A DNA stretch of 64,000 nucleotides, from contig QPMI01000044.1 in the NCBI GenBank assembly GCA_004431415.1, positions 248,001 through 312,000 on the forward strand. The letters run 5' to 3'. This DNA comes from Cyanophora paradoxa CCMP329. Lineage: Eukaryota > Plantae > Glaucophyta. A program made the translations under genes and the position numbers. The notes beneath the pieces are model-generated. The model did not search any database, had not been told where the DNA came from, and worked only from the letters and a program-made list of their open reading frames with translations. Below are positions 1-23,900 of the stretch, in pieces (within the stretch, counting starts at the first letter, position 1; the number at the start of each line of letters is the position of its first letter).

Positions 1-667
1 CGGGCTAGTTTTCGCGCACGCTTTCCTTGACGGCGATCGAGTTTGACCAGACTCTTGGTTTTCGTCGCGGCGGTGCCCGAAGGCGGCCGTTCCTGCTCCA
101 TATGCGACCTGGAGGCTAGCTGTGACGCTCTCTGCTGCGTGCCGAAGCTGCGGTGCGTGCTGGTCGCGCGCTTCGCCGAGTCGCGTACGTCTACCCCGGG
201 TGTTTTAACTTTTGTAGGGGAGAATTATTCGAGTCCCAAGTCGAGTCCCAGCCAAGTCGAATTGCGGGGACCGACTTTTTTTCGCGAGCTGTGCGCAGCC
301 CTGGACATCGATCCTGTATGCATTCGAGATTCTGTTTAAGCGATTTATAAGCTCTGCGCATGCGCCTGGCCACGAGAATCTCGCCCGTCCCCACAACAAT
401 CTCCTCTCAATTTCCTCAGGGCCTCGAGCTCAACTACAGCTAGCTGATTGGCAGATACTCACCAATTCCCCTTATTCCATAATTATATTCTGTCATGGCA
501 ACTCCACTCAGGACAACTCCCCCATAATTATATTCCCTCTCACTCCCCCTTATCCTATAATTCCAACTGCAGGAACTCCCCTTATCACATAATTATATTC
601 TCTTAGAACAAATCCGCTCAGGACAACTCCTCCCATAATTATACTCACTCTCGGCAGCCCTCCCCTA

Positions 668-672
668 CCCTC
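668..672 (+). repeat. Target-site duplication CCCTC (left copy; right copy 12165-12169)
   Basis: Identical 5-mer abuts both TIR ends. A 5-6-bp TSD is typical of rve-type integrases. Confidence 0.85.
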
Positions 673-1076
673 AGCTCAGCACTGCGCCGTGTCTCCAAAA
701 AAATACCCGCGAAAAAATCAAAAACAAATCAGAAAACAAACCATTCCCAGTAACCCAATCTTGAATATCAGTAAATCTCAGTAAGCCTCAGTAAGAAACA
801 TTGAATTAATCGAAGTTATATCATAATCTCGATTAATTATATCTTATCGAAGTTATATCTTTTTTATGCGCCGTGTCTCCAAAACAATTCCCAAGAAAAA
901 CAAACCATTCACAGTAACCCAATTCCAAATCTCACTAAATCTCAGTAAGCCTCAGTAACAAAAATCGAATTAATCGAAGTTATATCTTAAATCTTATTTA
1001 TCGAAGTTATATCATAATCTCGATTAATTATATTTAATCGAAGTTATATCCTTTTTATCCGCCGTGTCTCCCATGA
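673..1076 (+). repeat. Left terminal inverted repeat (404 bp)
   Basis: Reverse complement of 11761-12164, with one mismatch seen by eye (1056 vs 11781). Internally about 2 copies of a ~185-190-bp unit starting CGCCGTGTCTCC. Confidence 0.97.
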
Positions 1077-1520
1077 ATAACTAAGTAAGTTTAGTTAAAA
1101 CCTCGAAAGAAAAACCTCTCATTTTTTACTGTATTTTTTGAACGATTTTTTACTGTATTTGTTACACTAGAAACAACAATAGAAACGACAATAAAAACAA
1201 TAGAATTTTAATTGTTTTTGAATCGTATATACGTCAATATATCACTGTAATATATATCATATATATCATAGGAAATCGATTTATAGTCAAACCTATAACA
1301 TATCAATTTGTGTATATGTGATATATATTCATATATGACGTCATGATGATGATGTATATGTATCTGATATATATGACACACCGGCTTATTCGGGAGATCA
1401 TGACGATCACGGCGATGTGTATATTGTCATGATGTATATGTATATATGTGTGACGCAATCTGATTGGTGTGCTACTTGTTTTGTTGTATCCCCCTTCAAC
1501 TTCTCCCCAGGTTTATATCA

Positions 1521-1790
1521 CAGATAACATCTCAGATAATACCTCAGATAATACCTCAGATAATACCTCAGATTATACCTAGCTCAGATAATACCTCAGA
1601 TGATATCTCAGATATTAAATGTAATTTTGTTCGATTCCCATTGGACTATGCCACAGAGTAGTATTTACCTCTCTGAGGTATTTACCTTGAGGTATTTATC
1701 TCTCTGAGGTATTTACCTCGAGGTATTTATCTCGCCGAGGTATTTACTGCGAGGTATTTACCGCGAGATATTTACCTCGAGGTATTTATC
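1521..1790. repeat. Two opposed short-repeat arrays inside the PLV (putative protein-binding/origin region)
   Basis: About 8 x CAGATAATACCT (1521-1614) and about 9 x GAGGTATTTA(C/T)CTC-like units (1658-1790). Confidence 0.85.
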
Positions 1791-1969
1791 ACACGTCTTC
1801 GGTTTTTTCGATTATCGGCATCTTCAAACGCTTGTATCTCATCACCAGATCATCAAATCGCAACGTTCTGCATAGCGTTTTGAAGCGCTATGAAAGCTCT
1901 ACGCAACTATGCTATTTTCTTAGTATTTCAAGCTACCTTATCATACAATATTCTTCAGAAATCGACCTT

Positions 1970-2728
1970 TTACACACTGATTGTGGTCATTTCTCGCTGA
2001 ATCCGAGCCATCTGACTCCTTTTAATTGCTTTTCTCTTCACAAACTTCTTAAAGCCCTTTATATCATCATCAGTGAGTACTGCTCTATCAGTATAGGTCT
2101 TGATATCATAACCTTGCAGGCTAGCTATGACAGTTTGGTAATTATAACCCCATAGTCTATGCAATTCCTTGTAGGTCTTCTTATCCAAACCACCATTGTA
2201 CTCATCAAAGGCGCAATTGAACTCTTTCTCGTTCCCAAGAATATTGAAAAATACAACGAACTCCACATTGCGACGAATGGTAGTAGAAATAGAACACAAA
2301 CGCTGAACATTAAAGATTACCGAGATTGAATAATGTCTTCCACTCGTTACTAATTTAGATAACACAGCCGAATTATGCATATCCAAATTTGAACCTATCA
2401 TGTCATCGAGTATGATAACTAGGTTATTTCGCTTTTCGTTATTCTCAATTCGTTTCTTTTGCATACTGATCAATCTCAAAACAATGTTATCATCCCACTC
2501 TTCATAGATGTTATCGGGATGGGTGATGTCATTGAATTGTCCAGTAAAAGCTGTTGAACTAAATATAACGATTTGATCGATCTTGTCACGAAGCTCGTAA
2601 AGTAAGTATTTTGTGAACATTGTCTTACCTGTATTGGAGCGACCAACATTCAAAATTCTTGTCGGGATTCGAACCGTCTTACTCGGATCGAACTCCGGAA
2701 TATCATCAAGATTTACTGTGTTATCCAT
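1970..2728 (-). CDS. A32/FtsK-like DNA packaging ATPase
   Basis: 252 aa. Walker A GRSNTGKT, Walker B VIILDD, and the A32-family signature SGRHYSISVIFNVQ. Confidence 0.93.
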   Translation of the reverse strand: MDNTVNLDDIPEFDPSKTVRIPTRILNVGRSNTGKTMFTKYLLYELRDKIDQIVIFSSTAFTGQFNDITHPDNIYEEWDDNIVLRLISMQKKRIENNEKRNNLVIILDDMIGSNLDMHNSAVLSKLVTSGRHYSISVIFNVQRLCSISTTIRRNVEFVVFFNILGNEKEFNCAFDEYNGGLDKKTYKELHRLWGYNYQTVIASLQGYDIKTYTDRAVLTDDDIKGFKKFVKRKAIKRSQMARIQREMTTISV

Positions 2729-2808
2729 TACAGTAATAAGATAAAAAACAAAATAAAGTACACACCTACAAATAATTGCGCTTCCTACACTAACAAAAGA
2801 AAAGAACT

Positions 2809-4034
2809 TTAGAAGTTCGAGACTTTCAGGGTAGAGATGTTGTAGCCATTAAGTACCATAACATTGTGTCGGAGGGCATAGATATCAACCTGAACAGGAG
2901 CGGCATCAGTGCATCCGGAAACAGTGAGATCCATGTAACTCGAGCTGCTGTTGAAGAAATCCTGGTAACCCATAACCGAGTTCCGAAGCGAATCTTTTCC
3001 AGACTTGGAAAGAACAATTCCGTAAACATTTCCAGACTCGAATCCGTACGTGGTATTGCCCACAGTAACACCCTTGTAATGAGAGGGAATGTGATTGACA
3101 GCGGAGAGGAAACCGGAAATGGGTTTGTTGGAGATATCAAGGGAGCGATTGTTGTGGAAGATCTGGAACTGATCAATCTTAACAGCAGATTCATGACCAC
3201 AGAAATCTGAGTGAGTGTAGGTGTTAAGTTTGTTCACCTCTCGAACAGTCATGAGAATCGAATGTACAAGACCGGAAACATTAGCAAGTGTCACCTCAAC
3301 AGATTCACCAGCATCAGCGGTTTTGAGCGCTCGGGTCTTCTTGTGAATGACCTCTGTAATCGGAATGCGAATGCCACCTTGTTCATTCGCCATTTTAAGG
3401 AGTGTCTCAGCCTCAGCCGAAGCAATGTTTACGAATTGGCAGATCAGAGAGCAATCCGCAAAGGTTACAGATCCACCAGCAGGAACTTGGACAATCGCAG
3501 CATCACGGAAATCAACCTCGATTGTTGGCATATCGGCTAGCGTACATAATGGGAAATAAGCTTCTTCCCAGAAAGCAGCGGGGATTCTAACGATGTATTC
3601 CATTGCTTCATCTGTGCTTTCACGATCTGTCTCTTTGAAGTAACCGAGAGAAGCATACATGCTGCTCATGGTAGCGTGATCATTATCGACCAGGGCGTTT
3701 ACAGTGATCCAATCACCAGGGATAATATACTTGAAACCACCATGAACGAAACGGACCTCATTAATAAAAGAAGAACCACCATTGGGGAGGGTGCAGGCTA
3801 CACCACCACCAGTGGCAATCTTGAAATAGAGCGAAACACCAGCAAGGAGTTGCTTGCGAGGTAGATCAAAGTAAGCGGTATTCTTGAAGCCAAAAGTGTT
3901 GCCCCGGGACGAACTTGCTCGAGGAATGGTTTGTATTTGGGGTTGGTTCCGATTTGGAGACCAGGGGAAAGATAAATTTGATCGGAACCGGGAGTTACGA
4001 GGAGTTCCTTCAGGGTAGTTCCAGTGAGTGCCAT
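2809..4034 (-). CDS. Major capsid protein (double jelly-roll type), ~408 aa, with one apparent frameshift near 3903
   Basis: The frame of ORF 2809-3669 stays open upstream (GNTFGFKNTAYFDLPRKQLLAGVSLYFKI, resembling the N-terminal strands of DJR MCPs). It joins the ATG at 4034 (MALTGTTLKELL...) if one base is added in the CCCGGGG run. Position next to the ATPase and penton fits. Confidence 0.8.
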
Positions 4035-4086
4035 CTCTTATGTTTAAAATACCAAAAGAAATTTTTAAAATGCTTTATTAAACAGA

Positions 4087-4974
4087 ATGACGCGTTACTA
4101 TCTCAATATTGATTCCAGGGACCGATCGGATGGAACCCCAACTAATTTCACATACAGACTCCCTTATGCGATCCAAAAGGTCAGAGCCTGTCGAGTAACG
4201 AACTTTGAGATGTTTCACAATCTTTACAACCTCTCTGAAGTAGGAACCCTCACCACACAAACACTCGATAATGCTGGGAACCCAAAGAATAGAAACAACG
4301 AAGTCCTCCGAGGTGCATATACACCGGATTCACTGGTGAATTATCTGATCGCTCGCATTGGATCCCAGCCCTATAATCAAGCGGGTGGCGGAACTTACAC
4401 TCGCCATTTCTATGTAACCTATGATCCCACAACATTGCTTCTAAGGTTCATGTGTGAGGTTCCATTCTCAATCACTATGAACACTCAACTCTTAGCCAAT
4501 TTCTGTGGTTTTGAAAATGCTAACACACTGTACCAATCGAGTCCTCTATCATCTAATGTCACAGTTGGAGCCTTTACTTATGCTCACTACATTGATAGTG
4601 AAATGCCATTAGATCTACTATTTAATTCCTATTTGCTTCTTCATGTTGATCCACTGAAAGGAAGATATGTGAGCAATAACAAACGAGATAACAATGCTAT
4701 CGCGAAAATTGAGATTGACCAAACGGTTGGCAGTCTATTAAAATATGATTCATCGAATAATTCCATGATCGTTCACGAGCAGAATGGCTTGGTTGAGGTT
4801 GAGACTCTAGATGTGAGACTTTCTTACTGGAATGGAGCCACAGCAGACATTACTACCGACTGGTCGATGACTCTCGAACTGATTACTGAAGATGATAAAG
4901 ACCTGACAAAGAAAGCATTGAAGAATGTCATTAAAGAGTTGGAGGGACTCTACCTGCCATTCTCATGGTCATAG
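4087..4974 (+). CDS. Minor capsid (penton) protein
   Basis: 295 aa. N-terminal YLNIDSRDR..NF.Y.L and C-terminal LDVRLSYWNG...DWSMTLEL motifs are typical of PLV/NCLDV single-jelly-roll pentons. Divergent from the MCP across a 52-bp AT-rich gap. Confidence 0.85.
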   Translation: MTRYYLNIDSRDRSDGTPTNFTYRLPYAIQKVRACRVTNFEMFHNLYNLSEVGTLTTQTLDNAGNPKNRNNEVLRGAYTPDSLVNYLIARIGSQPYNQAGGGTYTRHFYVTYDPTTLLLRFMCEVPFSITMNTQLLANFCGFENANTLYQSSPLSSNVTVGAFTYAHYIDSEMPLDLLFNSYLLLHVDPLKGRYVSNNKRDNNAIAKIEIDQTVGSLLKYDSSNNSMIVHEQNGLVEVETLDVRLSYWNGATADITTDWSMTLELITEDDKDLTKKALKNVIKELEGLYLPFSWS

Positions 4975-5010
4975 GAAATACTGTAGAATAATTTTGTCTC
5001 GATATTACAA

Positions 5011-5772
5011 ATGGCTCGCAAGACTCAACCCAAGAATTTCTTAGCCAAACCAGCCGCTGAAGCGGATGTTGGCAATGGTGAGAATGGAAGGAACTGGTAT
5101 AAGAAATCGAAAGGACTCGCTGCATACGGAACTGGTGACCTCGAAAAGGAAGTCCATAAAGAACGAAACCAATTCACCCAAGCCACTACGAAAAACAGTA
5201 ATGATGATAATGCCCTTGTTGACCAAGTCCCACTGAACCGCATGCCCGGAGCCAAACGAGGAATCAAGAAAGGACAGTTCAAATCATCCACAAAGGACAA
5301 GGTTGCCTCATCATCGACACTGCTGAAACTGCTTGATGGTGGTGAGCGACTCTACTCAACCTATTCCGAGAAAGACCATCGCAACCGCTACTTTATTCGT
5401 TCAACCACTGGTGGACTGAAATCTGTAACATATCAGTATGCTAAGAGTCTTGTTGATGGTATTGCAGCAGAGACCAAAAACGAAAACAAGATCAAGGAAC
5501 AGCCAATCACAAAGGAAAAGGTTGAGAAGAAACCAGAAGTAACCCATGAAGTTATTCCCGAACCTGTTCATGTGGCAAAAGACTCACCTACAGAATTGAT
5601 TGCAAAGACCATTGAGTATCAAGACTCCAACAAAACGGATTTGCCGGTTCTCAATAAGTCGATCCTTCGGGTTGCCACTTCGCAGGCTGATCCAGTCAAC
5701 TCGATTCCAAATGCTGCCCCAATGGTCTCTGGATTCGCCAAGCTTGGTATAAGACCCGGTTATCGCCGTTAA
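5011..5772 (+). CDS. Hypothetical Lys-rich PLV protein (possible core/DNA-binding protein)
   Basis: Intact 253-aa ORF immediately after the penton gene. No recognisable domain. Confidence 0.7.
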   Translation: MARKTQPKNFLAKPAAEADVGNGENGRNWYKKSKGLAAYGTGDLEKEVHKERNQFTQATTKNSNDDNALVDQVPLNRMPGAKRGIKKGQFKSSTKDKVASSSTLLKLLDGGERLYSTYSEKDHRNRYFIRSTTGGLKSVTYQYAKSLVDGIAAETKNENKIKEQPITKEKVEKKPEVTHEVIPEPVHVAKDSPTELIAKTIEYQDSNKTDLPVLNKSILRVATSQADPVNSIPNAAPMVSGFAKLGIRPGYRR

Positions 5773-6031
5773 GGATCAATCTGAATAATATAATTTCTCA
5801 AACATTGTTAGCGCTACGTAACCAATCCTATCCCGTAGGCTCAAAACTTCTTCATTTTTATGGAGGCGTTGTAGAGCGAAGTGAAATATCCATAGGTAAA
5901 TCACTTTAATCACCTGTTCTACCGGGTTCAGTGGTAGAAACTTGCAGCCGACAAGTGAACCTTCTGGGTATCGGTGGCTTTATCATTTTTCCAGCATCTT
6001 CTTTCGTACTGGATGCTCTGCAATCGGGACC

Positions 6032-6108
6032 AAAATTTGACAGGAGTTTATTCGCTATATACAGACAGAAAAACTACTTAAAGATTTCTTAACATATATT
6101 AAGAGAGT
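6032..6108 (+). promoter_or_regulatory. Putative viral promoter (copy 1): AAAATTTGAC..GAGT / ACTTAAAGA / ATATATTAA.AGAGT
   Basis: The same three ordered motifs recur at 6546-6607, each set just upstream of an ATGCC start. Confidence 0.55.
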
Positions 6109-6121
6109 AGAAAAGGACAAC

Positions 6122-6378
6122 ATGCCAATCAGTGAGGCTCAGAAGCGTGCTACTTATCGTTATCGTAAAACTGAAAAAGGTCAGGAATATTTGAAAAAGT
6201 ACAATGCCAGATTTGCAAAGCAAATGCGTGACTTATACCATACTGATGAGTGTTACAGAGCCATGAAGATCGTTGAGAGTTCCAGCGTCTCTATGCTTCC
6301 AATGCAGTCTGCTTTGTGAAGTATCTCTATGGTGTCCCGTATTCTAACCGTGGTCGCAAATCGAAATATCTCTGTTAA
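6122..6378 (+). CDS. Small basic protein (MPISEAQKRATYRYRK...), probable frameshift near 6278
   Basis: The N-terminus resembles the 'SEAQKRA..KY' small basic proteins of large DNA viruses. ORF 6122-6319 can be extended to TAA at 6378 via an alternative frame. Shares an upstream motif with the next gene. Confidence 0.55.
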
Positions 6379-6545
6379 TCGTTTTCTCAGCGCGATCTGC
6401 TCTGAGAAACCCGTGGGAAACGCGCTGGAACCACAAATATAATCATTCTGTTATTTTTAGAGTTCGATGATCGAGCCAACCCTTTGTTATTTTTATGAAT
6501 GCCCTCGACTAAATTTATTTTGTTGGAGACTTTTGGTTTTGTCGT

Positions 6546-6607
6546 AAAATTTGACGCGAGTATAAAAGTATTTAAAGAAAACTTTTGTAGGTATATATTA
6601 ATAGAGT
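6546..6607 (+). promoter_or_regulatory. Putative viral promoter (copy 2) upstream of the pPolB-helicase gene
   Basis: AAAATTTGAC 6546-6555, ATTTAAAGA 6570-6578, ATATATTAATAGAGT 6593-6607, ATG at 6618. Confidence 0.55.
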
Positions 6608-6617
6608 GAACAAAGAA

Positions 6618-9600
6618 ATGCCTCGACCAAGTAATCGAATTTCGAAAATTTGCAGGATGAGATTCTTGGCTACTACATGCAAGCAAAAGTAGAAGACAAA
6701 TTGACCCGAGAGCAGGATATCTATTTCTTGAGAGAATTTACTTTCAAAGCAATTAGAATTCCAAAGTTGATTGATATCAGAGATACACTGAGAGGTATCG
6801 TAGAGCCTCGTTTGTATCGCAAGCAGGAGAAGAAGGAGAAGAGGGCTGAGAGAGCCGCTAAGAATGTTGAGAAGCAAAACAAGAAAGCGGAGCAAGCGAG
6901 AGAGCGGAAGCGCTTGACTCCTTTCCAGCAGATGATTGCTAACCTCCGTGAGTTTGTTGAAAACTCACCTGGAAACATGGTCACCCTGAATGTGAGACTC
7001 TTCCGTGAGTTGCAAGAGGGAGAACAAGCCCCTGCAAATGCAAACAGGGTCACTGAGAATGGTGTGACTACATTGAATCGAAGAGGCTTCGGAACAATCG
7101 CCCTTTGGTATCCAGTGTACCAAGGCAGCTTTTCTGAATGCTCTCGGTCTGGTTCAATCCACCTTCAATACGTTCCCATGTGTTGAGGGGACTGTCATTG
7201 CTGAATTTATTGCAGCAGTTATTGAGTTTAACTCGACCAATCAAGATTTCCGCTACCTAAAACTAATTGAGCAAGATACCTACCCCGATATTATGACAAT
7301 TGAAAGAGTCATCACGACAGATAATGAAGAATACATCCAAGAAATGAACAAGTCCTCAGAGACAATACAAACGCTCCAATGATTATTTCGAATTTCATTA
7401 AAACGAAGGGAACCCCCAAGCCACCACATTCAAGGAAATGTTCTTGAAAGGTGATTCATTCAAGGTTGGGAAGTGTGTTTTCGATGTCCTCATCAAATGG
7501 TTTGGAGGAGCGTTTGAGAAGGCTAAGACCAAAGGGAAATACAAGCGAATCGATTGGTCTTACAACGGACTCTTTAAGATGGTGAATGGGCGAGACCCTG
7601 TTGAAGGAGATGATTGGGGCATTTCTTTCAAGTCCATTTCGGAGAAGGTTCTTGACCCACTGCGCCTAGGCATGGTTACAATTGGAAAGGACGACAGAAC
7701 CCCTGTCCCTGAACTGACTTTCCTGCCCAAGACCAGGAACACACACTTGACCCCTTCTGTTGCATATGTGAAGATTGAGAATGGTCACATGTATTTGTTA
7801 AATCACAATATTAAGGCTCTCACACAGTCCTTCAATGGCTCCAAGCCAAAAGATACCAATGTTCCACTCAGTTCTCGTTACAAGATTATAAAGCAAAGAA
7901 GGTTCAAGGAGTTTGCCACAAATCCCGATGACATTCTGAGAATTGTCAGGTCTGACAATCCAAAGAACCAATCGAGCATTCGAATCTGCTATGGTGGTTC
8001 ACTGGATGAACTACTCAGAGAGTTCATTGTGGTGCATAATTATCAGGTCCAACCTGGGTTCTCCCAAATCGGAAAGGCAACCCATATTCGTTTCACTATT
8101 GACGATAAGGATGTTGTCGTGACCCCACCTGGTAACGATACAGATGTGGAAACAGCTTTCGAGATTAGCTTCAAGAATGCTGAGTACAGAGATAAATTCG
8201 AGAAACTAAATCTGGATATGTATAGGTCTCTAATCAACACTTCCAACAAGAGTACTTACAATGAGCAAACCATAAATGCATTCAAGAATGGAGTGCAGAC
8301 TGCCCTTCGTGGTCTCTTTGATGTGGATGAGGAGACCTTTGATGAAATTCGCTATAACACAGATATTTACGAGTTCGATATGTGCAAAGCATACCCTTAC
8401 ATTGTAGCCTTGATGATCAAATTCGTTCCTGTTCTCAGCAAGTTCGATGTCTTCAAGAGTGTGACAATCACAGATGCAGAGCAAATCGAGGAATACAGCT
8501 TCTATTACGTGAAACTGGACGACAAATACTTTTTCAAAGCCAAAGACAAGAACGGAAAGGAGTACGAAGCAAACACCTACAACAGATACAAGAGGATGAT
8601 CATTGATTCCAAGTACAATGTTGTTCCTGGTTTGGTTCTCAAAAGCATTTCGAGGATTTCAAGGATGACATCTCCATCAAAGCGGTTCTGCGACCTTACA
8701 AACTCATTCCCAACCTTGCAGGCAACACAGTTGCTCGAATCTTAGATAGCGACCTCGATCCTGTTGATAAGAAGCAGATCTTGGTGAGTGCAATTGGGCA
8801 AACTGGAAAGCAACGAAATAGCAGAGTGAAAACCACCATTTTCCACAACAGAGACGATGCGATCGAGTTCCAGAAACAGAACGGAGGGGAGGTTAAAATT
8901 TACCTCTTTGGTGAGACTCTTGCCACTTATGAGGAGACAGAGTTCGTTCTGTGTGAGGAAGAGATGACCGAACCCATATCTACTATGTCAATCAGGTAGC
9001 AGAAAAGCAGCTCATTGATGGCTTCATGCCATTGTACACTACCCTCTTGTCAATTATGAGGATGTGTATGTATGAGAAGTGTGTCGAACTCGCTAAACAG
9101 CAGATCCGACCACTCGCTTTGAACACCGATTGTGTTTATGGGATCGCTTATGAACCCATTGCCCCAGTGTCATTCGATCGCAATGCCTTTGAGAATATTG
9201 GAAAATTCAGTGTGAAATGCTGCCCCAATTTTTCTAAAAAGTTTTCAGGTGAGAAGAAAGACCTCGAGGCAAAACGAATTCGTTACGGAAAGTTTGAGAG
9301 AGCGACTGACTTTGTGAAAATCGAGAACTACAGTTATACCAAACACTCTGTGGTTGATGAGTATGACACAACCGCGATTTGTGATTTGCTGGCTACACAA
9401 AAACGATGGGTTCTTCTCGGATCAGTTCCAGGAGTTGGAAAGACTCACATGACAGTTGAATATGGGAAGCGTTTCAAAAATCCCCTCTATATTGTTCCGA
9501 CCAACAAGCGAGTGAAGGAAATGAAAGAGCAAGGATTGAAAAATGTGAAGACAATCTATGATGCCCTTCATCTCAAAATCGATGAGTCGAACATGGATGA

Positions 9601-10698
9601 AATCGTAGGAGGGAATGCATCTGGTTTGGTAGAATTTGATTGCATTGTTATTGATGAGATCTGTCAGTTTAAGATTGGAGAACTGGCAGCCCTGGACCAC
9701 ATCATGAATGAGCAGTTCCCAGATAAGGTATACATTGCCACAGGTGACCCGTATCAGAACCCACCCATTCAGGATATGAGTGTTGACCAAGATGAGTATT
9801 ACCTCGATATTCTCCATCGCCTGTTCCCCAACGAATTGTTACTCCAAGTGAACAAGCGACATGAGACTGAGGAAGATCGCAGGAAGGTCGAGCAAATTCG
9901 AATTGATTTATTCGAGAAAGGTTTGAGTGTAAGTGAGGTCCTCACAAAGTATGGGTTCAAGGTTGTGGACGAATTGGAAAAGACTGATATTGGCATTGTT
10001 TACACAAACCGCAAGGGTGCAGAGGTGAACCTAGCCCTTCACAAAATGAACTACGGGGATAATGTTTCCATTTATGCTGGCGGCATCAAAGTTGTTGCAA
10101 AGACTCGTATTGCAAAGGTGGAAAAATAGTTCATAATGGATTTGTCTACAAGATTGTCAAGCTCTCAAAGGACAGTTTCATAATTGCTGACATTGCCAAC
10201 AAGAAGGATGAGATTGTTCTCAGCAGGGATGCAGTCAAACATTTCGCCCTGGCTTATGCAAACACCTGCCATGTTGTTCAAGGTGATACGATTCGCTGCA
10301 AAGGGAACAGGGTAGTTGTGTTCGAAACGGGGGCGCCATTTGTGTCAAAGAAGTGGCTCTATGTTGCTCTCACACGAACCACAAGGCTGGATGATGTCGT
10401 TATTTACCATGATAATTTCGAAATGGCTCACTGGAAGGTGTGGAAGAGAGAGAATAACGAGAAAATATCGACTTACAAGGATCAGGACCGAGCAGCAAAC
10501 AGACAATTCGATGAGCATGATTACATCACATGGGATTGGATCAAGCAGCGATATGGGAAGCAGTATGGGCATTGCCTGCGATGCTACAATGCCATGGACT
10601 TTGAAGATATTTCGGTAGATCGAATTAATAATGCTGTGGCTCACATTACCAAAAATTGTTTCCTCTCTCATATTAAGTGTAACTGTGCCGCCCAATAA
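6618..10698 (+). CDS. Divergent protein-primed family B DNA polymerase-SF1 helicase-HNH-like fusion (~1360 aa), split by ~7 single-base frameshifts
   Basis: PolB-like motifs: FDMCKAYP (A), KKQILVSAIGQTGK (B), NTDC (C). SF1 motifs: GSVPGVGKT, VIDEICQ, TGDPYQNPP, YANTCHVVQG, LYVALTR. C-terminal CLRC..SVDRINNAVAH..NC....KCN. Fragments join by 1-nt shifts near 6647, 7090, 7340, 7418, 8643, 8974 and 10115. Confidence 0.85.
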
Positions 10699-11759
10699 TG
10701 GATAGTGTATTATCATTCAAAAAGTATAGGCAGAAACTGATTAATGAAAAAGTGAGTTTTGATGAAAAAGAGTTGAAAAAGAAGTTCAAAAACTCAGAAC
10801 TCCAGCAAATTTACAAGAAACCAAGGAAACCCAAATCGTTTCTTCGCATAGTGGCAAAGCCTAGATCGTTTCAAATCGATATAACATATTTCAGAGGGTT
10901 TCAGACTGCCAACAATGGCATTTTCAAAATGCTTAGTTTCGTAGACATACTTAGTCGCAAAGGATTTGTTTATCCTTTTAAAAACAGCAGTGAGATCCCG
11001 AGCATTTTAAATAGGTTCAAGCAAGAAGCAGGCAAAGTTAATGCTCTCTCTGGGGATAATGAGTTTTCCCAGGCAGTATACCGAAATTGGTGCAGTGAAC
11101 ATGGTGTAATGCTATACACAGATGTGGCAAAGGATGACCACATCACAGTAGGAGATAAACTGGGGATAATTGATAGGTTCACTAGGACTTTCAAACAGTA
11201 TCTCAGAAAATCGATGACAGCAAAGGGAACCACGAAATGGATCGATCTACTTAGTGATGTAATTGACTTGTATAATAGCAGTCCCCATTCTGCATTGAAA
11301 AATGACTCTCCAAATGCAGTGTATACAAATGAAGATAAACAGTTATTTATTTACATGAGGGATACTGTTCACAACAATCGTGTAAAGGAGGCTGATACTA
11401 ATCAAGTGAAACCAGGAGACACAGTTCGAGTTTTGCAACCAAAGGGATTGTTTGAAAAAGAAGGTGCGCAATTCAGTCAGAAGGTCTACACTGTTGCAAA
11501 GGCTGATAGGAATCGTTTCAAAGTGCTTGAAGATAATGATGGTGAGGAAACAAAAGAAGTGAAGAGGAGATTTAAGAAACAAGAATTGCAAAAGGTGAAT
11601 AAAGATGATATCATTAAGATACCATCACAAAAACGGATTCAGCAGGTTAATAAAACGAATAAAGTGAATCGATTGGTAGCAAAAGAAGGCATAAAACCCA
11701 ATCGGAGTAATGTAATTCGGAGGAGATACAATTTGAGAAGTGGTTTAACGAAACGCTAA
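10698..11759 (+). CDS. Retroviral-like (rve) integrase
   Basis: 353 aa. FQIDI..., FVDILSRKGFVYP, SGDNEF, IIDRFTRTFK, YNSSPHSAL, and SH3-like PGDTVRV, as in Polinton/PLV/mavirus integrases. Confidence 0.93.
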   Translation: MDSVLSFKKYRQKLINEKVSFDEKELKKKFKNSELQQIYKKPRKPKSFLRIVAKPRSFQIDITYFRGFQTANNGIFKMLSFVDILSRKGFVYPFKNSSEIPSILNRFKQEAGKVNALSGDNEFSQAVYRNWCSEHGVMLYTDVAKDDHITVGDKLGIIDRFTRTFKQYLRKSMTAKGTTKWIDLLSDVIDLYNSSPHSALKNDSPNAVYTNEDKQLFIYMRDTVHNNRVKEADTNQVKPGDTVRVLQPKGLFEKEGAQFSQKVYTVAKADRNRFKVLEDNDGEETKEVKRRFKKQELQKVNKDDIIKIPSQKRIQQVNKTNKVNRLVAKEGIKPNRSNVIRRRYNLRSGLTKR

Positions 11760-11760
11760 A

Positions 11761-12164
11761 TCATGGGAGACACGGCGGATGAAAAGGATATAACTTCGAT
11801 TAAATATAATTAATCGAGATTATGATATAACTTCGATAAATAAGATTTAAGATATAACTTCGATTAATTCGATTTTTGTTACTGAGGCTTACTGAGATTT
11901 AGTGAGATTTGGAATTGGGTTACTGTGAATGGTTTGTTTTTCTTGGGAATTGTTTTGGAGACACGGCGCATAAAAAAGATATAACTTCGATAAGATATAA
12001 TTAATCGAGATTATGATATAACTTCGATTAATTCAATGTTTCTTACTGAGGCTTACTGAGATTTACTGATATTCAAGATTGGGTTACTGGGAATGGTTTG
12101 TTTTCTGATTTGTTTTTGATTTTTTCGCGGGTATTTTTTTGGAGACACGGCGCAGTGCTGAGCT
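11761..12164 (-). repeat. Right terminal inverted repeat (404 bp)
   Basis: Reverse complement of 673-1076. Starts 1 nt after the integrase stop codon. Confidence 0.97.
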
Positions 12165-12359
12165 CCCTCTCCCTACCCCGCCGACCCATTAACAGCCGCG
12201 ACGGGCCGCGATGAATAAGGGGGGCGCGAGGAGGGCCGCTGAGGCTTCGCCCGATGTTTGGGACCCGCAGGGGCCCAGGGCTTGTCGGAAATCCGGGTCG
12301 GCGAACGAAATTAAGGGTCACGTCCGGGTCACATCCGTCCCGCGTGTTCGCCCACTACC

Positions 12360-12701
12360 CGCCCTGAACCAATTCACTCACTCACCTCGACGATGACGTC
12401 ACGCGACTTTCCATCCACTCTCTCTCGTGGTCCGGAGTCGTGGATCGAATCTCGAACTTGTACGCTGCAATCTCGACAGCTGTCATGAATCAATTTCGAT
12501 CCTGACTCCCCTAAGACGACCGCTCTCCCGCGCCCTGAACCAATTCACTCACTCACCTCGACGATGACGTCACGCGACTTTCCATCCACTCTCTCTCGTG
12601 GTCCGGAGTCGTGGATCGAATCTCGAACTTGTACGCTGCAATCTCGACAGCTGTCATGAATCAATTTCGATCCTGACTCCCCTAAGACGACCGCTCTCCC
12701 G
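12360..12701 (+). repeat. Perfect 2 x 171-bp tandem duplication
   Basis: 12360-12530 is repeated at 12531-12701. Confidence 0.95.
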
Positions 12702-13490
12702 TGGGCGTCGGACGAAAATCCATTTCCCACGCGGATCGATTCCGGTATTTATACCCCGGTTCGATCGCGAAACTCCAAAAAGTGGGACCCAGTCCCGCCC
12801 GGTCCCGCGACGAAAGCGCGCCAGCGACGCCCCAGAGCGGTACAGAAAGAGAGCCGAGAGCGCGCGCACCGCTGCAAGCTCGATTTCGGCCGCCGTCGAC
12901 ACTCCAGTGCGAAGAGTCGGCCAAAAGTTTGACCCAGCCGGTCCCGTCCGGTCCCGCGACGCGCGCAATCGATGCGTTCTCGCGCGCATAGACATAGCAC
13001 GGCCTGCGCACTCCAGATATCCGCTTTCCGGAGCCGGAACAGCGCAGGAAGGTGCCCGGCGACGAAAATTCGTTCCTGCACAGGCCCGGACATCTTTCCG
13101 CGCGCCCAGGCCGCGGCGCATGCGCCGAACAATAGTATAAGCATTTGAGATGTAGAAGAAGCCTTCCGTACGCTTTTTAAATGCGCCGGGCCGCGAGGAC
13201 CCAGCCGACCCCGAAAATTCGATCCTTGACGTCGACGAACCTGCCCATCTTTCCGTGCGCCCTCACATCCTCACGCATGCCCACCCCTACAGAATTCATT
13301 TGAGAGCTTTTCCAAGCTTTGCGCAAGCACTCTGGGGGCGAAAGAGCACAAGAACCCAGCCGACGCCAGAATTTCGATCCTGCACTGGCCTGCACATATT
13401 TCCATGCATATATATGCGCCCTCGCCTCCGCAGCCTGGCTCTCCAAATGCGCCTGGCCACAGGAACCTCGCTCCTCCCCTTAATGATGAC

Positions 13491-17947: not shown

Positions 17948-20900
17948 ATGGCCAGCTGCATGCCGCCATGCGCATGCCACGCACGCGGCGCCGCCGCCGA
18001 CCGCGGTCGGGTCAATCTTAAGCTTCAGGCTGCGGTGGCAATCTTCGCACTCGCCTTTGCCGCGAGTACCATCGCTCCGGGTGCGCGCGCGCCCGTCCTT
18101 CGGCAACCGGCTAGCTATAGCAAATTTTCCCGGACTCCGCCGCCGGGCCGGGCCGCGGAAATTCCAACTCGGAACGATCCACACGGCGGAATTCGAATAT
18201 TAATGGGCCTCTTTCCCGCGCAGCGGCGGCTGCGGACCTCCCGCGCATCCCGATGCTCGGAGGCGCCACGCTGCCCCAGGGCCCATCGTGGGACGCCATT
18301 CCCAAGGGCAACTACTCGTACTGCATCGGGTCTGAGTGGCTGCAGACCACACAAACCGGTGCGCAAATTTAGGCGGGTTGGTCGCCTCCCGGAGTCCCAG
18401 CTGTTTGATTGTCCAGTAACGCCTTGTGGCGCCGGCACACTGAGCACTGCGGCAGGAACGGGCACGAGCGCAGACTTCGACCATAGAGCTATCGGATGTG
18501 AGTTCCAATTGACAACCGCCCCTATATATATGTATATATAGCTAAATCCACTTCGATTCGTTTTATAGTGATAAGCACTGACCACGATCATGATGATTGC
18601 GCGCGCAGCACTGCATTACTCGGAATTTGACGGTGTTCACTCCTCTGTTCCTCTAGATCTGTTCCTCATTAAAGGCTCTGAAAAAGATGCATGTTTAATT
18701 TAATCCTTAATATCAGTTCGCAGGCTTTTTGTATGTGGGAACGAACAGGGCTATCTTCCGCGTGAACAGCACCTGCGGTAGCGAGCTGGTGGCGGGCGTC
18801 GCGCTGACTGACGAGCTCTTCAAGGCGATAGATTACGATTATTCTCTGAGTTACAACAAAGCCTACAAACTGCCCCTCACGGGGGCAACGTCCGCGGCCA
18901 TCCTCGCCGCGGATCTCACGTTCAGTGCCGGATGCTGCGAAGGAGGCGAGGGAAAGCGCCGGCAGCTGCTGCAATCGTACACCGTCAATTCACCAGGCGT
19001 TGGATTCAGGTGCGCGCACACATCTTGAAGCTTGCCAATGCATATATATGCTATTGCAGTCGCGATCATTGATTCGATTGTGCGATTGCGCAGCGACGTT
19101 ATTGGACTCGTGGCTGGGTCGGCAAACAAACTTTACTGGCTCAGCGCGAGCAACAATAGAATTGGATACGTCACACTAAACGCCAACCCCAATGACAATA
19201 CAATCACGACCCTCTGGAACGGAACTTGCCCCTCTGGTACGAACCCCAATGTGTCGGGAAATGTATATATCAAATTGCGCAGTTGAAGGAGGCGAGGGAG
19301 AGGGAGAGGAACGGAGACGCGTGCGCCTGCTTGAAGGAGAAAGCTTGAATTTTGTCGGAGGATACGAGTATTCTCCGAAAGGTTCTTGAGCGTCTCACGA
19401 TTTCTTGAGACCCAATTCTCTAATCTATAAACTGTCTGTCGTGGCCAGGAATCGCGCACCACGGCAGCAAAATATATGTCCTCGCGAGCGTGAGACCGTG
19501 CGGCAACACTCCTGACGGTTGGAGAGACAAGGTAGTATTGTTCACAATCCCAGCCGCTGGTTCGCGTCCGCTCGAATTGATATTAATTATGAGTTTACCA
19601 AATCGAAAGACGCTAACAGTTCTAATTGCCCTCAATTGCAATATGTACTACTACGGTATCATGATCACGGCGTGCGCAGGTGGCGACCCTCAGTTCATCT
19701 CGGAGAATCTAGGAGGGAACGAGCAGAGGCTCCAGGTCATCGGAGACTTTGGCGGGCAGATGGCCATCGACGTCGACGGGGACAACGTTCACCTCTTCAT
19801 AGGCCTGGAGTATGACGAGCCCTACATCGATGGCGCTCCCGGGTACCTCCTCACGCATATCGTAAAGGTGCCTTTTTTTTCAGACATTGGATCCAGCACA
19901 TACAAGAATATTAATGCCGTTCACGCATCGATATCGTGATCGATTTTCAACTTGCGAACCTCACAGGTCGTTGTAGCGCACGCCACGAACACACTTGTCT
20001 CCTTCACGAACTTCACGAGCTTCATGTCGTACACGAGGCAATTCAATTTCACCCAGAGCGGAGAGATTAAAACCTGGAATGGATACTTTGAGGTCGTCCC
20101 TGGGCACATGTCCGTTCTTCGCACGAATTCGACTGGCCTTGGATTGTACTTTCAGTTCATTATTATATTTCACGCCCATGATCAGAATATTAATTTTTTT
20201 TTTTTTTGCAAAAGCCCAACCGGGCAATGTTCGTATTAAGTGACAGCAACAGCCTCCCCGTCGCTGCCATCGACTGGGGGGGCGCCTAGGCTAGCTCTGA
20301 GGCTCTGCGGCATAGAGGGAAGACGTCCTGCTATCCTATCCTAGCTGTCCGCGATCGAGCTGGAGCGTGTGGGGGTCGTGAGGCGGGGTTGTCCTTGGCC
20401 CTGAGGGAGGGGGAGGGGGGGGAGGGGGAGGAGGGCACTTTCTGCCAGGTTGGGCTTAATTATAAAGGGGCGGGAGGAAAGGGGGGGGGGTAAAAAGGGA
20501 GAGCGGGGGGAGAGGGGTCTCGGAGGAAGTAAAGCCGGCTGCCATGGCCCGATCGCGAGCGCCGCCGCTAGCTGCCTAGTTTCTTGTCGCAGGCGGGGAC
20601 CTCTGCTGCAGTGCCGGCTGGCCGTAAGCTTGTGGTGCCGTGGGAGTGGGCGGTCCGGGCCGTCACCACGGGACGGCTGGGGAGTCGAAGTCAGGCGGCG
20701 GCTCAAGGAGGGGGCCGCGGGAGGGGGCAGTCTCGGTTTCTGTGCGCTCGAGTGTAGCAACGAAGCCGGCAGCTGTCCACATGAGCGGATCGAGGGGGGC
20801 GGGGGGGGGCGGGTGGTCATCGTCCGGCTCCCAGGCCCAGGTAATGGTGCTAGGGTCGAGGGCGGGCTTGGCATCGGCAGGGGACAGACCGCGGGCGGCG

Positions 20901-23900
20901 TATTCCGCCTTAGTTATGGCGACAAGGGCACGGGCCCAGACGTCGCGGGCAAACGCCTCCCAGATTAGCTGGGCCGTAGGCTTACCGGTCCACTCACGGT
21001 CCTCCTTCGTGAGCGTGTGCACCCGCCACGCGGCGCTGATCATGAGGCCAGCGAGGGCGGGAAGGAGGGCCGCGGGGGCGAGCGGGGCGCGGCGGCTCTG
21101 GGGTTTGCCAACGGAGTGGGGTACGGCGTAGAAGCCCGTGATGGCGTGCGCGCAGCTCAGGGGGACCCGCCTGTGGAAGTGGGCGTTCCAGCGCTCGATC
21201 AGCTCTTCCCAGGCCGCCCGCGCTGGGGCGCAGTAGTAGACTGCGTGGTCCGAGGTGTCCTCTGGGATATCTATGCATTCGCAGACTTCGCAGAAGGGGC
21301 TGGGGCGTGCGCCGATGCGGTGGAGGAACTGGCCGGCGGGGAGGCATGCATGGGTGGCCCAGAGCCAGATCTCTCTGTTCCAGGCTGTGAGACTGGCGTG
21401 GCGGCAGCCGTACTTCCATACGTTCTGCCACAGGCAGCGTGGCGGCGGGGCCCCAAAGCGGGCGAGGGGGCCCGGGTCGGGGGTGGGGGGGAGGGCGAGG
21501 AGCGCGCGGTAGCCCGCTGAGATGCGGTACTCGAGCCAGGGGCGGGGGCCTTTGGGGGAGGCAAAGAGGAGGCCCGTGTGGGTCCAGGGCGTGGCGTCTA
21601 GGCGCCCGGCGAGGACGGGGCGGCCTGCAGGCCAGCGCTGCTTCTGCTTGGTGGAGCCGGGGGGTACGAGGACGACATGGGCCCGCGGGAGCGAGACCGG
21701 GGCGGCGGGGAGGGGCTGGGTTGGCGTTGGCGGCTCGGCGAGCGTTCCGTCCGGGAGGGCGCCTACGCGGCAGCCGGTCGGGGGGGTGCCGGGGAGGGCG
21801 AGGATGACCGCGGATGGGCCGGGGCGGCGGGGGCCGTGGCCCGCCACGATCGGGGGGTCGAGGACGCGGGGGTCGCCGCCGGGACCGGAGCGGACCGCTG
21901 CCGGGCCACGGTACAGGGGGGCGAGGCCGAGGGCGGTCACCTGTGCCGAGAGCTGCGTGCGAATCACGTGAAGACGGTTGCGGGCCGCGGTGGACAGGCC
22001 AGGGGGGGGTACGGTGAGGACCTGGCCGGCCTGGGTGATCTTCGGCGACGTGGCGGAGCCGGCGGCGAGCGCGCGGTCAGCCGCCTTGGCGCCCCAGAGC
22101 TGATCGGCCGAGGAGAGCACCGGGTTGAACCAGAGCGGCTCTGCGCGGAAGCGTTCACGCGTGAGCGGGAGGGACGCGGGTGATCGGACGGCTGGGCAGC
22201 TGGCGGGCTGCTCCGCTGCTGCGCGCGGGCGGAGGAGGCCTAGGATGCGTGCGGCCGGGGCTAGCGGGCCTTGGCAGGGGAGGAGCGCGGATTGGCGGGC
22301 CAGCGGGATTTGTGCACCGAGTGCGGCGATGCCGAGCGAGCGGGCAACGGAGCTCCGGGCGCGCGAGAAGAGGACGCCGATGTCGTCGGCTGCAAACAGC
22401 TTCCAGATCGCGAACGTCGGGTCGCAGAGCGCCTTGATGTACGTGCCGGCCTGCGCGAGGAGGCGAGACTCGAGGTCGATGGCGCCAAGGCCGCCGTGAG
22501 CGGGCGGGCGCACCGCCATCGCGCGACTGATCCTGCCCCGCGGGGCTCGTTTCGTTGCCGGCGCCTCGGGGGCCCGGGGCCAGATCGCGCACCAGTACTC
22601 GTGTTTGAGGGCGTCGAGCGCTGCCGGCGGGCACGGGAGGAATGAGGCCGCATACATGAGCTTGGACGCGAGGATCGCGGTGGCGACGTACGCGCGCTGG
22701 TGCGCGCGCATACCTCGGAGGTTCCACCGCGTGCGCGCCTTGCGCATGCCTTCGCCCTTGCCGAGCCAAAACTCGGTCGTGTCAAGTTCGCCCGTCGAGC
22801 CCAGTGGGATTCCGAGCGTCGTCGTCTGCGAGACCCAGCGGATCGGGATCTGTGCTGCCCAGGCTGGCAGCGTCTGCGGCGGGCGGATCGCGGCGGCGCC
22901 AGCGAGCATACCTTCCGTTTTGCTTAGGCTGAGGCACGAGCCGTTGTACTTCTCCGCCTTGGCGTACGTGCCGAGGCACTTCCGTACTGGTTTGCCGGGA
23001 TCAGGCGACTGCGGGTCGATCAGGATCGTGTGCGCCGCGTCGTCGGCGTATTGGTTCAATTTGGATTCGACCCCGGGATTCCCGGGCGCCGGTACGCCGG
23101 TTATCTCGGGGTCTGCTAGTATCGCGCGCGTCGTCGGCTCTTGCTGCGTATTGAAGAACATGCACGCGAACGGGTCGCCCTGCATCGCGCTCCGCGTGAT
23201 TTTGATGGGATCGGGGTCGACGACGCCGTTGAGCATCACTTTTGATCGCGCGCCTTTGATCGCAGCGCGAACGTCCTGGAGGAATTCCGCGGGGAAGCCT
23301 TGAATCGCGAGAACGCGCAGCGCATAGATGTGCTCGACGCGGTCGTACGCTTTTTCAAAGTCCGTGTTTAAGACGACGATATGCTTGCCCTCGCGGGCGG
23401 CGTAGCGGATGACGGACTGCATCTGCCAGACGTTATCCGCGCCGTTTCGATCGGGCATGAAGCCCGTTTGGACCGAGCTAATCGTGTGCTGGCACGCGGG
23501 GGCGATCCGCTTCGCCAAGACCGCCCCGTAGAGGCGGCGATCAATTTGCAGTAGCGTGATGGGGCGCCAGTTCTGGATCCGGTCGCGGTCACCCTTTTTA
23601 TAGAGCAGCTGGATGAGTCCCATGCGCTGGCGCTCCGAGAGCACTCCTAGGGCGCGCGCGCAGTTGTAGCTCTCGGCGATAATGGGGCCTATTACGTCCC
23701 AGAACTTAAGGTAGAACCGGACGGTCATGCCATCCTCGCCCGGCGCAGTGGACTTATTCATCTCCTTGAGGCTTTCCCCCACTTCCTGAGCGGTGTACTC
23801 GCCCTGGGTCGGGGCGCAGAGGGGGGCGGGTGCGGTATCAAGGCAAGGGGCAAGCAGGGCTGCTTCTTCGAGCGACAGCGGATCGAGGGGAGTGAGGAGC

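What the first reader, a model, noticed from the sequence alone, without database searches (positions are those of the whole stretch)
673..12164. Compact, complete, recently integrated Polinton-like virus (7 genes, no protease)
Seen: both TIRs (one mismatch in 404 bp), a clean TSD, a full morphogenetic module (ATPase, MCP, penton), a pPolB-helicase fusion and an integrase, all in 11.5 kb. Known: canonical Polintons and virophages encode an adenain/Ulp1-like maturation protease, most PLVs do not, and such genomes are commonly ~15-25 kb. Inference: a minimal PLV lineage, possibly undescribed, that is young enough to be reactivatable.
Basis: partly seen in the sequence, partly recalled or inferred. 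Interest (0 to 1): 0.85.

Follow-up and report, generated by a model that had tools for sequence, protein, structure and literature searches.

The report
Compact Polinton-like provirus, family already catalogued
A small (11.5 kb) DNA-virus genome with matching end repeats sits inserted in the chromosome of what is likely a glaucophyte alga; its capsid gene is nearly identical to one already catalogued, so it is a further copy of a known kind of integrated virus that is predicted, not shown, to still be able to make particles.

Summary
Real, and the anatomy is largely as described: 404-bp terminal inverted repeats with one mismatch, a 5-bp target-site duplication, 40% GC in a 65% GC host, seven genes. 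The capsid protein has a predicted double-jelly-roll fold. The novelty claim mostly fails. Bellas et al. 2023 list a Cyanophora paradoxa endogenous capsid protein about 98% identical (compared by eye). Bulzu et al. 2025 tally 156 glaucophyte PLV regions, none with a protease. Wei et al. 2026 list five complete C. paradoxa elements of 10.4-10.9 kb. The replicase fits the known Tlr1-like pPolB-SF1-helicase-HNH fusion, and the gene set equals Tlr1's. 'No protease' holds only for the maturation protease; a vOTU-like Cys/His pair is visible (motif level only). Three genes are frameshifted in the window, but short-read contigs carry one more base at each listed break, so these are likely assembly errors. 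Depth hints at about ten copies, and 50 of 56 listed family differences are synonymous. Reactivation is untested. No close environmental relative was found. Verdict: new member of a known kind; its small size and isolated capsid lineage keep modest interest.

The parts
668..672 (.). Left copy of the 5-bp target-site duplication (CCCTC)
   Evidence: empty paralogous site with a single copy tables 5/5c
673..1076 (+). Left terminal inverted repeat, 404 bp, starting AG; built of internal ~190-bp subrepeats
   Evidence: I4; one mismatch at 1056; 11-mer recurring at 686, 870, 1061
1077..1969 (.). AT-rich non-coding region with 12-, 14- and 31-bp tandem arrays; varies among family members
   Evidence: longest ATG ORF 35 aa; joints 1424>1808 and 1416>1810 in read contigs
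1970..2728 (-). A32-like genome-packaging ATPase, 252 aa
   Evidence: Pfam PF04665 E 1.1e-15; Walker A at nt 2644, ILDD at 2413
2809..4034 (-). Double-jelly-roll major capsid protein, about 408 codons, one frameshift near 3905 in the assembly
   Evidence: AF2 model of the unbroken 364-aa piece pLDDT 65.6; Foldseek PBCV-1 capsid E 1.4e-14, TM 0.68; near-identical published MCP; one more base at 3905 in 3 of 4 runs, the fourth not covering it
4087..4974 (+). Probable minor capsid protein (penton), 295 aa; assignment by recalled N-terminal IDSRDR motif and position only
   Evidence: motif at nt 4105; no hit in Pfam, PHROGs, NCBIfam, PDB
5011..5772 (+). ORF of 253 aa, lysine-rich, no family hit; possibly a virion core or cement protein (guess)
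   Evidence: no hits
6122..6378 (+). Small basic ORF, about 85 codons, one frameshift near 6281 in the assembly; possible DNA-binding protein (guess)
   Evidence: one more base at 6281 in 4 of 4 runs
6618..10698 (+). Tlr1-like replicase, about 1,360 codons: unknown N-terminus, candidate vOTU (Cys near 7474, His near 7786), pPolB palm (motifs at 8371, 8769, 9119), SF1 helicase (Walker A 9419), C-terminal HNH-like domain (from about 10570). Broken in the assembly near 7100, 7336, 7399, 8640, 8972, 10116 and probably near 6640
   Evidence: motifs; helicase hits; read contigs; motif comparison with transpoviron palms
10698..11759 (+). rve-type integrase, 353 aa, open; the third acidic residue appears to be Asp rather than Glu
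   Evidence: Pfam rve E 0.0097, rve_3 E 0.0025, both under cut-off; motifs at 10869, 11049, 11163
11761..12164 (-). Right terminal inverted repeat, 404 bp, ending CT
12165..12169 (.). Right copy of the 5-bp target-site duplication (CCCTC)

Best explanation
This is an 11,492-bp Polinton-like provirus with Tlr1's gene set, inserted with a 5-bp target-site duplication into a repeated sequence of a host that is likely the glaucophyte Cyanophora paradoxa, and it likely belongs to a young family of about ten copies that is predicted to be still able to replicate and form particles. Shown: the ends, the duplication, the empty paralogous sites, the ATPase, a predicted DJR capsid fold, an SF1 helicase, and selection on coding sequence within the family. 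Inferred from known relatives: the rve integrase made the insertion. Once released, the linear genome would be copied from its TIR ends by the protein-primed polymerase-helicase fusion, whose vOTU domain would cut off the priming domain. The ATPase would pump the DNA into a capsid of MCP and penton that needs no maturation protease. The provirus is likely silent in normal growth, because this host methylates repeats and viral genes at CpG. For the trigger I commit to virophage-like activation by a giant virus (about 50%), against autonomous nuclear replication (about 20%) or spread within the genome only (about 30%).
For: Ends and TSD. DJR fold; ESM Atlas nearest clusters Capsid_N/Capsid_NCLDV at 0.98. 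Published near-identical C. paradoxa MCP, 7 differences in 298 positions by eye; one of five distant relatives is also from C. paradoxa. Replicase architecture as in PMC11161782 section 9 and PMC5499653; palm motifs resemble transpoviron palms. Frameshifts: contigs carry one more base at every listed break; a 2,666-nt contig differs from the window by 5 gaps but only 2-3 substitutions in X2 and X3 (table 8), the pattern of long-read deletion errors. 50 of 56 listed substitutions against family contigs are synonymous (21% expected), none makes a stop. Interior contig depth is 11-16 times that of the flank-joint contigs in X2, X3, X7 (a hint only). 19 of 24 listed runs, all of one species label, hold 0.78-0.81 of the words. 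C. paradoxa has giant-virus insertions and CpG silencing (PMC12344493 passages); integrated PLVs of Tetraselmis are woken by a giant virus (10.1101/2025.10.09.676808 abstract).
Against: No expression, extrachromosomal DNA or particle evidence. Read contigs collapse the copies, so they show that the family is open-framed, not that this copy is. At 9859-10467 the window differs from the majority contigs, so the break at 10116 could be specific to this copy. At 7100 only about half the depth shows the extra base, possibly from overlapping contig ends. pPolB, vOTU, penton and HNH have no profile or structure support. Motif B lacks the Asn seen in transpoviron palms, and a 2016 paper read such palms as inactive. 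No close relative in IMG/VR or JGI metagenomes, so no free form is seen. The host was not tested with host genes.
Confidence: 0.8

Rival explanations
1. The family now spreads only inside the genome as a self-synthesizing transposon; the capsid genes are recent baggage and no particles are made.
For: No free relative in IMG/VR or JGI metagenomes. About ten near-identical copies by depth. Motif B of the palm is atypical.
Against: Capsid-module differences within the family are as synonymous as the rest (17 of 19 listed), which points to recent selection for capsid function. The virion half has more diverged relatives than the replicase half (table 2), the module swapping typical of viruses.
Confidence: 0.3
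2. An autonomous temperate virus that replicates in the host nucleus without a helper, as first reported for TsV-N1.
For: It carries its own replicase, integrase and capsid module. A run guessed to be RNA holds a very deep contig of a relative, matching 10648-10702, which would fit helper-free transcription of some family, but the run type is a guess.
Against: Most characterized PLV isolates depend on a giant virus (PMC10120064 text; 10.64898/2026.06.19.733378 text). The same run covers this element's integrase only at depth about 10 and runs through the TIR into flank, which looks like DNA carry-over.
Confidence: 0.2
3. This particular copy is truly decayed (its frameshifts are real), while sister copies are intact.
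For: At least eight coding breaks in the window. Collapsed contigs can drop a variant held by one copy in ten.
Against: Every listed coding break is a one-base deficit, with almost no substitutions beside it (table 8). Single-copy variants do survive elsewhere in the same runs, such as the 1548-1837 contig at depth 99 in X2 that matches the window exactly. The TIRs differ at one base in 404. Bellas et al. report the same artefact in protist EVEs.
Confidence: 0.15
4. The element is an assembly chimera of several family members.
For: The window switches between majority and minority contig alleles along its length, and no contig spans it.
Against: Both TIRs and a matching TSD are present, and the flanks rejoin into a host repeat seen empty elsewhere. 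Minority contigs match the window at 10287-10428 with 0-1 differences (table 8), so that variant exists.
Confidence: 0.07

Closest known systems
Cyanophora paradoxa endogenous MCP clusters (Bellas et al. 2023, PMC10120064, Tables S2 and S4)
   Same: Table S2 row 24 differs from the window's MCP at 7 of 298 positions by eye (HHpred 97.19% to an ascovirus MCP); row 23 is a clear sister. 366 MCP hits in two clusters (272 and 94).
   Different: Those tables give MCPs and counts, not this element's genome. Which of the two clusters holds this MCP I could not tell.
pMVRE group 2 elements of C. paradoxa (Wei et al. 2026, PMC13215967, Datasets 3-4)
   Same: 5 of 12 listed complete elements span 10.4-10.9 kb with TIRs of 352-507 bp at 99.1-99.8% identity. 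The group often has pPolB fused to SF1 helicase.
   Different: None of the 12 has a 404-bp TIR. I could not compare sequences, so whether they are the same family is inferred from size and host.
Tlr1 elements of Tetrahymena and Bigelowiella natans PLVs (Tlr1-like pPolB-S1H; PMC5499653, PMC11161782)
   Same: Tlr1 encodes MCP, mCP, ATPase, rve integrase and the fused replicase but no maturation protease. PLV versions end in an HNH domain, lack the exonuclease and lack the first Asp of motif C. All of this matches here at motif level.
   Different: Tlr1 ends in GIY-YIG rather than HNH. No sequence hit to these proteins was obtained. Motif B has Val where transpoviron palms have Asn.
Maverick-Polintons (Polintoviricetes)
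   Same: TIRs, AG...CT ends (recalled as typical), rve integrase, TSD, DJR capsid, A32 ATPase.
   Different: No maturation protease, no exonuclease-bearing pPolB, 5-bp rather than the usual 6-bp TSD, smaller genome.
NCLDV-like PLVs (Zora, VC218, Zephyr, VC40; Bellas and Sommaruga 2026 preprint 10.64898/2026.06.19.733378)
   Same: Best structural and feature hits of the MCP are Nucleocytoviricota capsids. Zora and VC218 often use rve, and Zephyr members include polB-SF1 fusions.
   Different: Those genomes are 15-30 kb. No Mriya48, HUH or VLTF gene is evident here. The preprint's main text does not mention Cyanophora or glaucophytes. Placement was not tested with their HMMs.
OmPLV of Oxyrrhis marina (PMC12721341)
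   Same: Endogenous PLV, no protease, helicase-pPolB fusion.
   Different: Its fusion is in the opposite order and keeps the exonuclease; it uses a tyrosine recombinase and has no TSD.

Membership tests
Polinton-like viruses (broad sense) | Double-jelly-roll major capsid protein | tested here: met
Polinton-like viruses (broad sense) | A32-like packaging ATPase | tested here: met
   Pfam PF04665 E 1.1e-15
Polinton-like viruses (broad sense) | Single-jelly-roll minor capsid protein | tested here: inconclusive
   Candidate 4087-4974 by recalled motif and position; no hit; fold not obtained
Polinton-like viruses (broad sense) | Linear genome with TIRs, integrated with integrase-type TSD | tested here: met
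Tlr1-like / pMVRE group 2 elements | pPolB palm fused N-terminally to an SF1 helicase, exonuclease absent | tested here: inconclusive
   Helicase met by profiles. Palm by motifs only. One contig spans palm and helicase with the frames continuous. No exonuclease motif seen by eye.
Tlr1-like / pMVRE group 2 elements | vOTU domain with catalytic Cys and His upstream of the palm | tested here: inconclusive
   Candidate Cys and His motifs at nt 7468 and 7777 (motif form recalled); no Pfam hit; no homologue alignment obtained
Tlr1-like / pMVRE group 2 elements | C-terminal HNH or GIY-YIG endonuclease | tested here: inconclusive
   CxxC...DRINN...H...N...HxxCN seen; no HNH profile hit
Tlr1-like / pMVRE group 2 elements | Placement in the group-2 pPolB clade by phylogeny | not testable with these tools
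   No homologous replicase was retrieved
Maverick-Polintons (Polintoviricetes) | Adenain/Ulp1-like maturation protease gene | tested here: not met
   No hit; no spare ORF above 36 aa in the gaps; the 253-aa ORF has no family hit, so a very divergent protease there is not excluded
Maverick-Polintons (Polintoviricetes) | Full pPolB with exonuclease (PF03175) | tested here: not met
   No PF03175 hit on any replicase piece
Maverick-Polintons (Polintoviricetes) | rve integrase | tested here: inconclusive
   rve hits under cut-off; the TSD supports it
Virophages (Virophaviricetes) | Virophage-type MCP and cysteine protease | tested here: not met
   Sputnik and mavirus MCPs score below NCLDV capsids (TM 0.48-0.53 against 0.63-0.70); no protease
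Aquintoviricetes versus NCLDV-like PLV groups | MCP/ATPase cluster membership by HMM and phylogeny | not testable with these tools
   The preprint's HMM set is not available here and bioRxiv supplements are closed

The most novel reading that the evidence does not exclude
One of the smallest self-contained double-jelly-roll viruses of eukaryotes: 11.5 kb and seven genes, below the 14-40 kb and 15-45 kb ranges quoted for PLVs. Its capsid lineage is confined to glaucophytes (nearest others 24-28% identical), it is still particle-competent, and it acts as a resident virophage in a cultured model alga. That would make it a candidate first virus of glaucophytes, for which my searches found no isolate.
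Probability: 0.25. Interest if true: 0.7.

Novelty: new member of a known kind. Interest (0 to 1): 0.36.

Why it matters
As it stands it is a clean example of a class already counted in bulk: it adds a worked-out gene map of a compact glaucophyte PLV and evidence that the family is young and under selection. It would matter more if particles are found. It would then mark the low end of genome size for PLV-type viruses and show capsid assembly without a maturation protease in a seven-gene system. It would also give a cultured host for two open questions: whether the exonuclease-less pPolB-SF1 fusion really polymerizes (read as inactive in 2016, predicted active in 2024), and whether integrated PLVs defend a basal Archaeplastida lineage against giant viruses.

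Tried and rejected
No whole genome was held, so copies and insertion sites could not be counted in an assembly. Word-based protein searches found nothing for the MCP, the vOTU/palm piece or the helicase piece; the last two searched only longer proteins, which is weak evidence. IMG/VR scans were empty for MCP, helicase, integrase, ATPase, P0005, P0004 and the TIR end. JGI metagenome scans were empty for MCP and the TIR end. These scans find close relatives only. Single-sequence folding of the MCP failed (pLDDT 30.9); a six-sequence alignment worked. No fold or Atlas result was obtained for the penton or the replicase. None of nine window proteins is in the 15-billion collection by exact sequence. 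Phage tblastn gave only two weak Dda-like helicase hits and nothing for the palm piece. Expression: no RNA holder listed. One run guessed to be RNA (X20) was laid on 8600-12215 only; it is uninformative for this copy. My HNH spacing pattern did not match, so that domain rests on the translation. Target-site specificity: one X20 contig leaves the TIR into an unrelated flank, which argues against a strict preference for this host repeat, but it is one record. Earlier scan findings: none returned. Rejected: canonical Polinton, virophage in the taxonomic sense, and OmPLV-type fusion (wrong domain order).
Full report
Observation. The element runs from 673 to 12164 (11,492 bp). Its arms, 673-1076 and 11761-12164, are 404 nt long and differ at one position, 1056. 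It begins with AG and ends with CT, and CCCTC stands on both sides. That 5-mer is low-complexity, so I checked it against reads. Contigs from other copies of the flanking host repeat join 672 to 12192 through 22 letters, exactly the length of the right flank after removing one CCCTC; a second joint, 652 to 12165, behaves alike to within one base (tables 5 and 5c). The duplication is therefore real, and the element landed in a repeated host sequence. GC is 40.5% inside and 64.6% in the rest of the window to the right.

Genes. Seven genes fill about 85% of the stretch between the TIRs, and the three gaps hold no ATG-started frame above 36 aa. The ATPase (1970-2728, minus) hits Pfam Pox_A32 at 1.1e-15. 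The MCP (2809-4034, minus) has no Pfam hit. Its unbroken 364-aa piece found only 5 relatives among 1.84 billion representatives, at 24-28% identity. Folded alone it failed; with those five it gave pLDDT 65.6 and pTM 0.71. Foldseek then ranked PBCV-1 and other Nucleocytoviricota capsids first (E 1.4e-14, TM 0.68), with Sputnik and mavirus capsids lower (TM 0.48-0.53). The ESM Atlas gave Capsid_N and Capsid_NCLDV clusters at 0.98, though with a recognition value below its reliable range. The penton candidate (4087-4974) rests on a recalled N-terminal motif and its position; four libraries gave no hit. The ORFs at 5011-5772 and 6122-6378 are unassigned. The integrase (10698-11759) hits rve models only under their cut-offs.

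Replicase. The stretch from about 6618 to 10698 holds, in order, a candidate vOTU Cys and His (motif forms recalled), three polymerase-like motifs, an SF1 helicase and an HNH-like tail. The helicase is supported by profiles; the other domains are not. By eye, the palm motifs resemble the transpoviron palms printed in Wei et al.'s supplement, including loss of the first Asp of motif C, but motif B has Val where those have Asn. Krupovic et al. 2024 (PMC11161782; section 9 and passages read) define this TP-vOTU-palm-S1H architecture, with HNH or GIY-YIG at the end, and predict it is an active polymerase. Krupovic et al. 2016 (PMC5499653; passages) read the palm as inactive and list Tlr1's genes as MCP, mCP, ATPase, rve and this fusion, without protease. 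That is the gene set here. So 'no protease' is right for the maturation protease only.

Frameshifts and age. As assembled, three genes are broken. Read contigs show one more base than the window at 3905 (3 of 4 runs; the fourth has no cover), at 6281, 7336, 7399 and 8640 (4 of 4, full depth), at 7100 (4 of 4, about half the depth), and at 8972 and 10116 (3 of 3 DNA runs). A further gap lies somewhere in 6544-6876 (table 8). A 2,666-nt contig differs from the window by 5 gaps and only 2-3 substitutions in X2 and X3, which is how long-read deletion errors look; Bellas et al. describe the same artefact (PMC10120064; parts 1-3 of 7 read). Against this, contigs collapse the copies, and around 9859-10467 the window follows a minority allele, so the break at 10116 may be this copy's own. 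Interior contigs are 11-16 times deeper than flank-joint contigs in X2, X3 and X7; the tool warns that depth is no copy number, so I take this as a hint of about ten copies. Of the 80 substitution rows shown (333 more were not shown), I used the 56 in open coding frames and dropped 23 non-coding rows and one at a break. Of these 56, 51 fall on third positions and 50 are synonymous, against 21% expected, with no stop. The rows shown are the best-supported ones, which may favour older variants. The family diverged under selection in the capsid module (17 of 19) as well as in the replicase (18 of 19) and the integrase (15 of 18).

Host and prior description. One of the five MCP relatives is a Cyanophora paradoxa protein. 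Bellas et al. 2023, Table S2 row 24, list a C. paradoxa endogenous MCP that differs from the window's at 7 of 298 positions by eye; Table S4 counts 366 MCP hits in two clusters in that genome. The host is thus very likely this glaucophyte; I did not test this with host genes. Bulzu et al. 2025 (PMC12220804; passages and Table S6 rows) tally 156 glaucophyte PLV regions: 139 with the ATPase, 85 with rve, 34 with an SF1 helicase, and none with a hit to any of nine protease profiles. Wei et al. 2026 (PMC13215967; first part of results, methods and dataset rows) list 12 complete group-2 elements in C. paradoxa. Five span 10.4-10.9 kb with TIRs of 352-507 bp; none has a 404-bp TIR, and I could not compare sequences. 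The compact, protease-free class in this host is therefore already on record in bulk tables. I found no paper that describes it individually. Two 2026 preprints on PLV classification do not mention Cyanophora in their main text.

How it likely works. The rve integrase inserted a linear genome, making a 5-bp duplication (6 bp is given as typical). By analogy with the relatives above, the fused replicase would prime at the TIR ends and copy the genome, and the ATPase would fill a capsid of MCP and penton. C. paradoxa methylates repeats and viral-origin genes at CpG and carries giant-virus insertions (PMC12344493; passages), so silence in normal growth is likely. Integrated PLVs of Tetraselmis are reactivated by a giant virus (10.1101/2025.10.09.676808; abstract), and most characterized isolates depend on one. 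I therefore favour a virophage-like life (about 50%) over autonomous replication (20%) or spread within the genome only (30%). None of these was tested. No free relative was seen in IMG/VR or JGI metagenomes, though these scans reach close relatives only.

Verdict. The feature is real and well delimited. It works like a Tlr1-type PLV, and it is a PLV in the broad sense (capsid, ATPase and ends met; penton inconclusive). It is not a canonical Polinton or a taxonomic virophage. Its capsid family, its lack of protease, its replicase type and its size class in this host are all already in print, so I rate it a new member of a known kind. Its size, below the ranges of 14-40 kb and 15-45 kb usually quoted, its isolated capsid lineage and a cultured host keep the interest at 0.36.

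Noticed in passing
window 20663-25750 (-): An open 1,695-codon frame of a non-LTR retrotransposon: endonuclease, reverse transcriptase (PF00078 E 1.5e-16) and a weak zf-RVT hit.
   Followed up: partly
window 56834-64000: A large inverted duplication of a host gene region, arms 91-98% alike, folding around about 60,400 and running off the window's end (I1-I10); a real palindrome or an assembly fold-back.
   Followed up: no
window 1-672 and 12165-13000: The flanks are themselves a multi-copy host repeat (very high read depth), with a perfect 171-bp tandem pair at 12360-12701; possibly the end of another mobile element.
   Followed up: partly
window 10648-10702 (run X20, record 11): A 483-nt contig at depth about 2,476 in a run guessed to be RNA matches only these 55 bases and continues as a related HNH-tail/integrase-start sequence. 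A sister element may be highly transcribed there.
   Followed up: no
window 10635-12165 (run X20): X20 holds a variant 2.6% diverged over the integrase, and a TIR end joined to a different flank: another insertion site or another strain.
   Followed up: partly
P0005 and P0004: Two of the distant MCP relatives lie on contigs of 11,726 and 15,531 bp from public assemblies; the first is close to this element's size and may be a free compact relative. Their DNA could not be fetched.
   Followed up: partly
window 673-1076: Each TIR is built of about two internal units spaced about 190 bp apart, with an 11-mer at 686, 870 and 1061 and a 13-mer five times; candidate binding sites for the replicase or integrase.
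   Followed up: partly
window 45638-46923: A pair of 96-nt inverted arms, 90% alike and 1.1 kb apart, in a lower-GC patch; possibly a small non-autonomous DNA transposon.
   Followed up: no
window 39663-40253 and 41818-42249: Short AT-rich direct-repeat families (D17 and D20) inside GC-rich host DNA.
   Followed up: no
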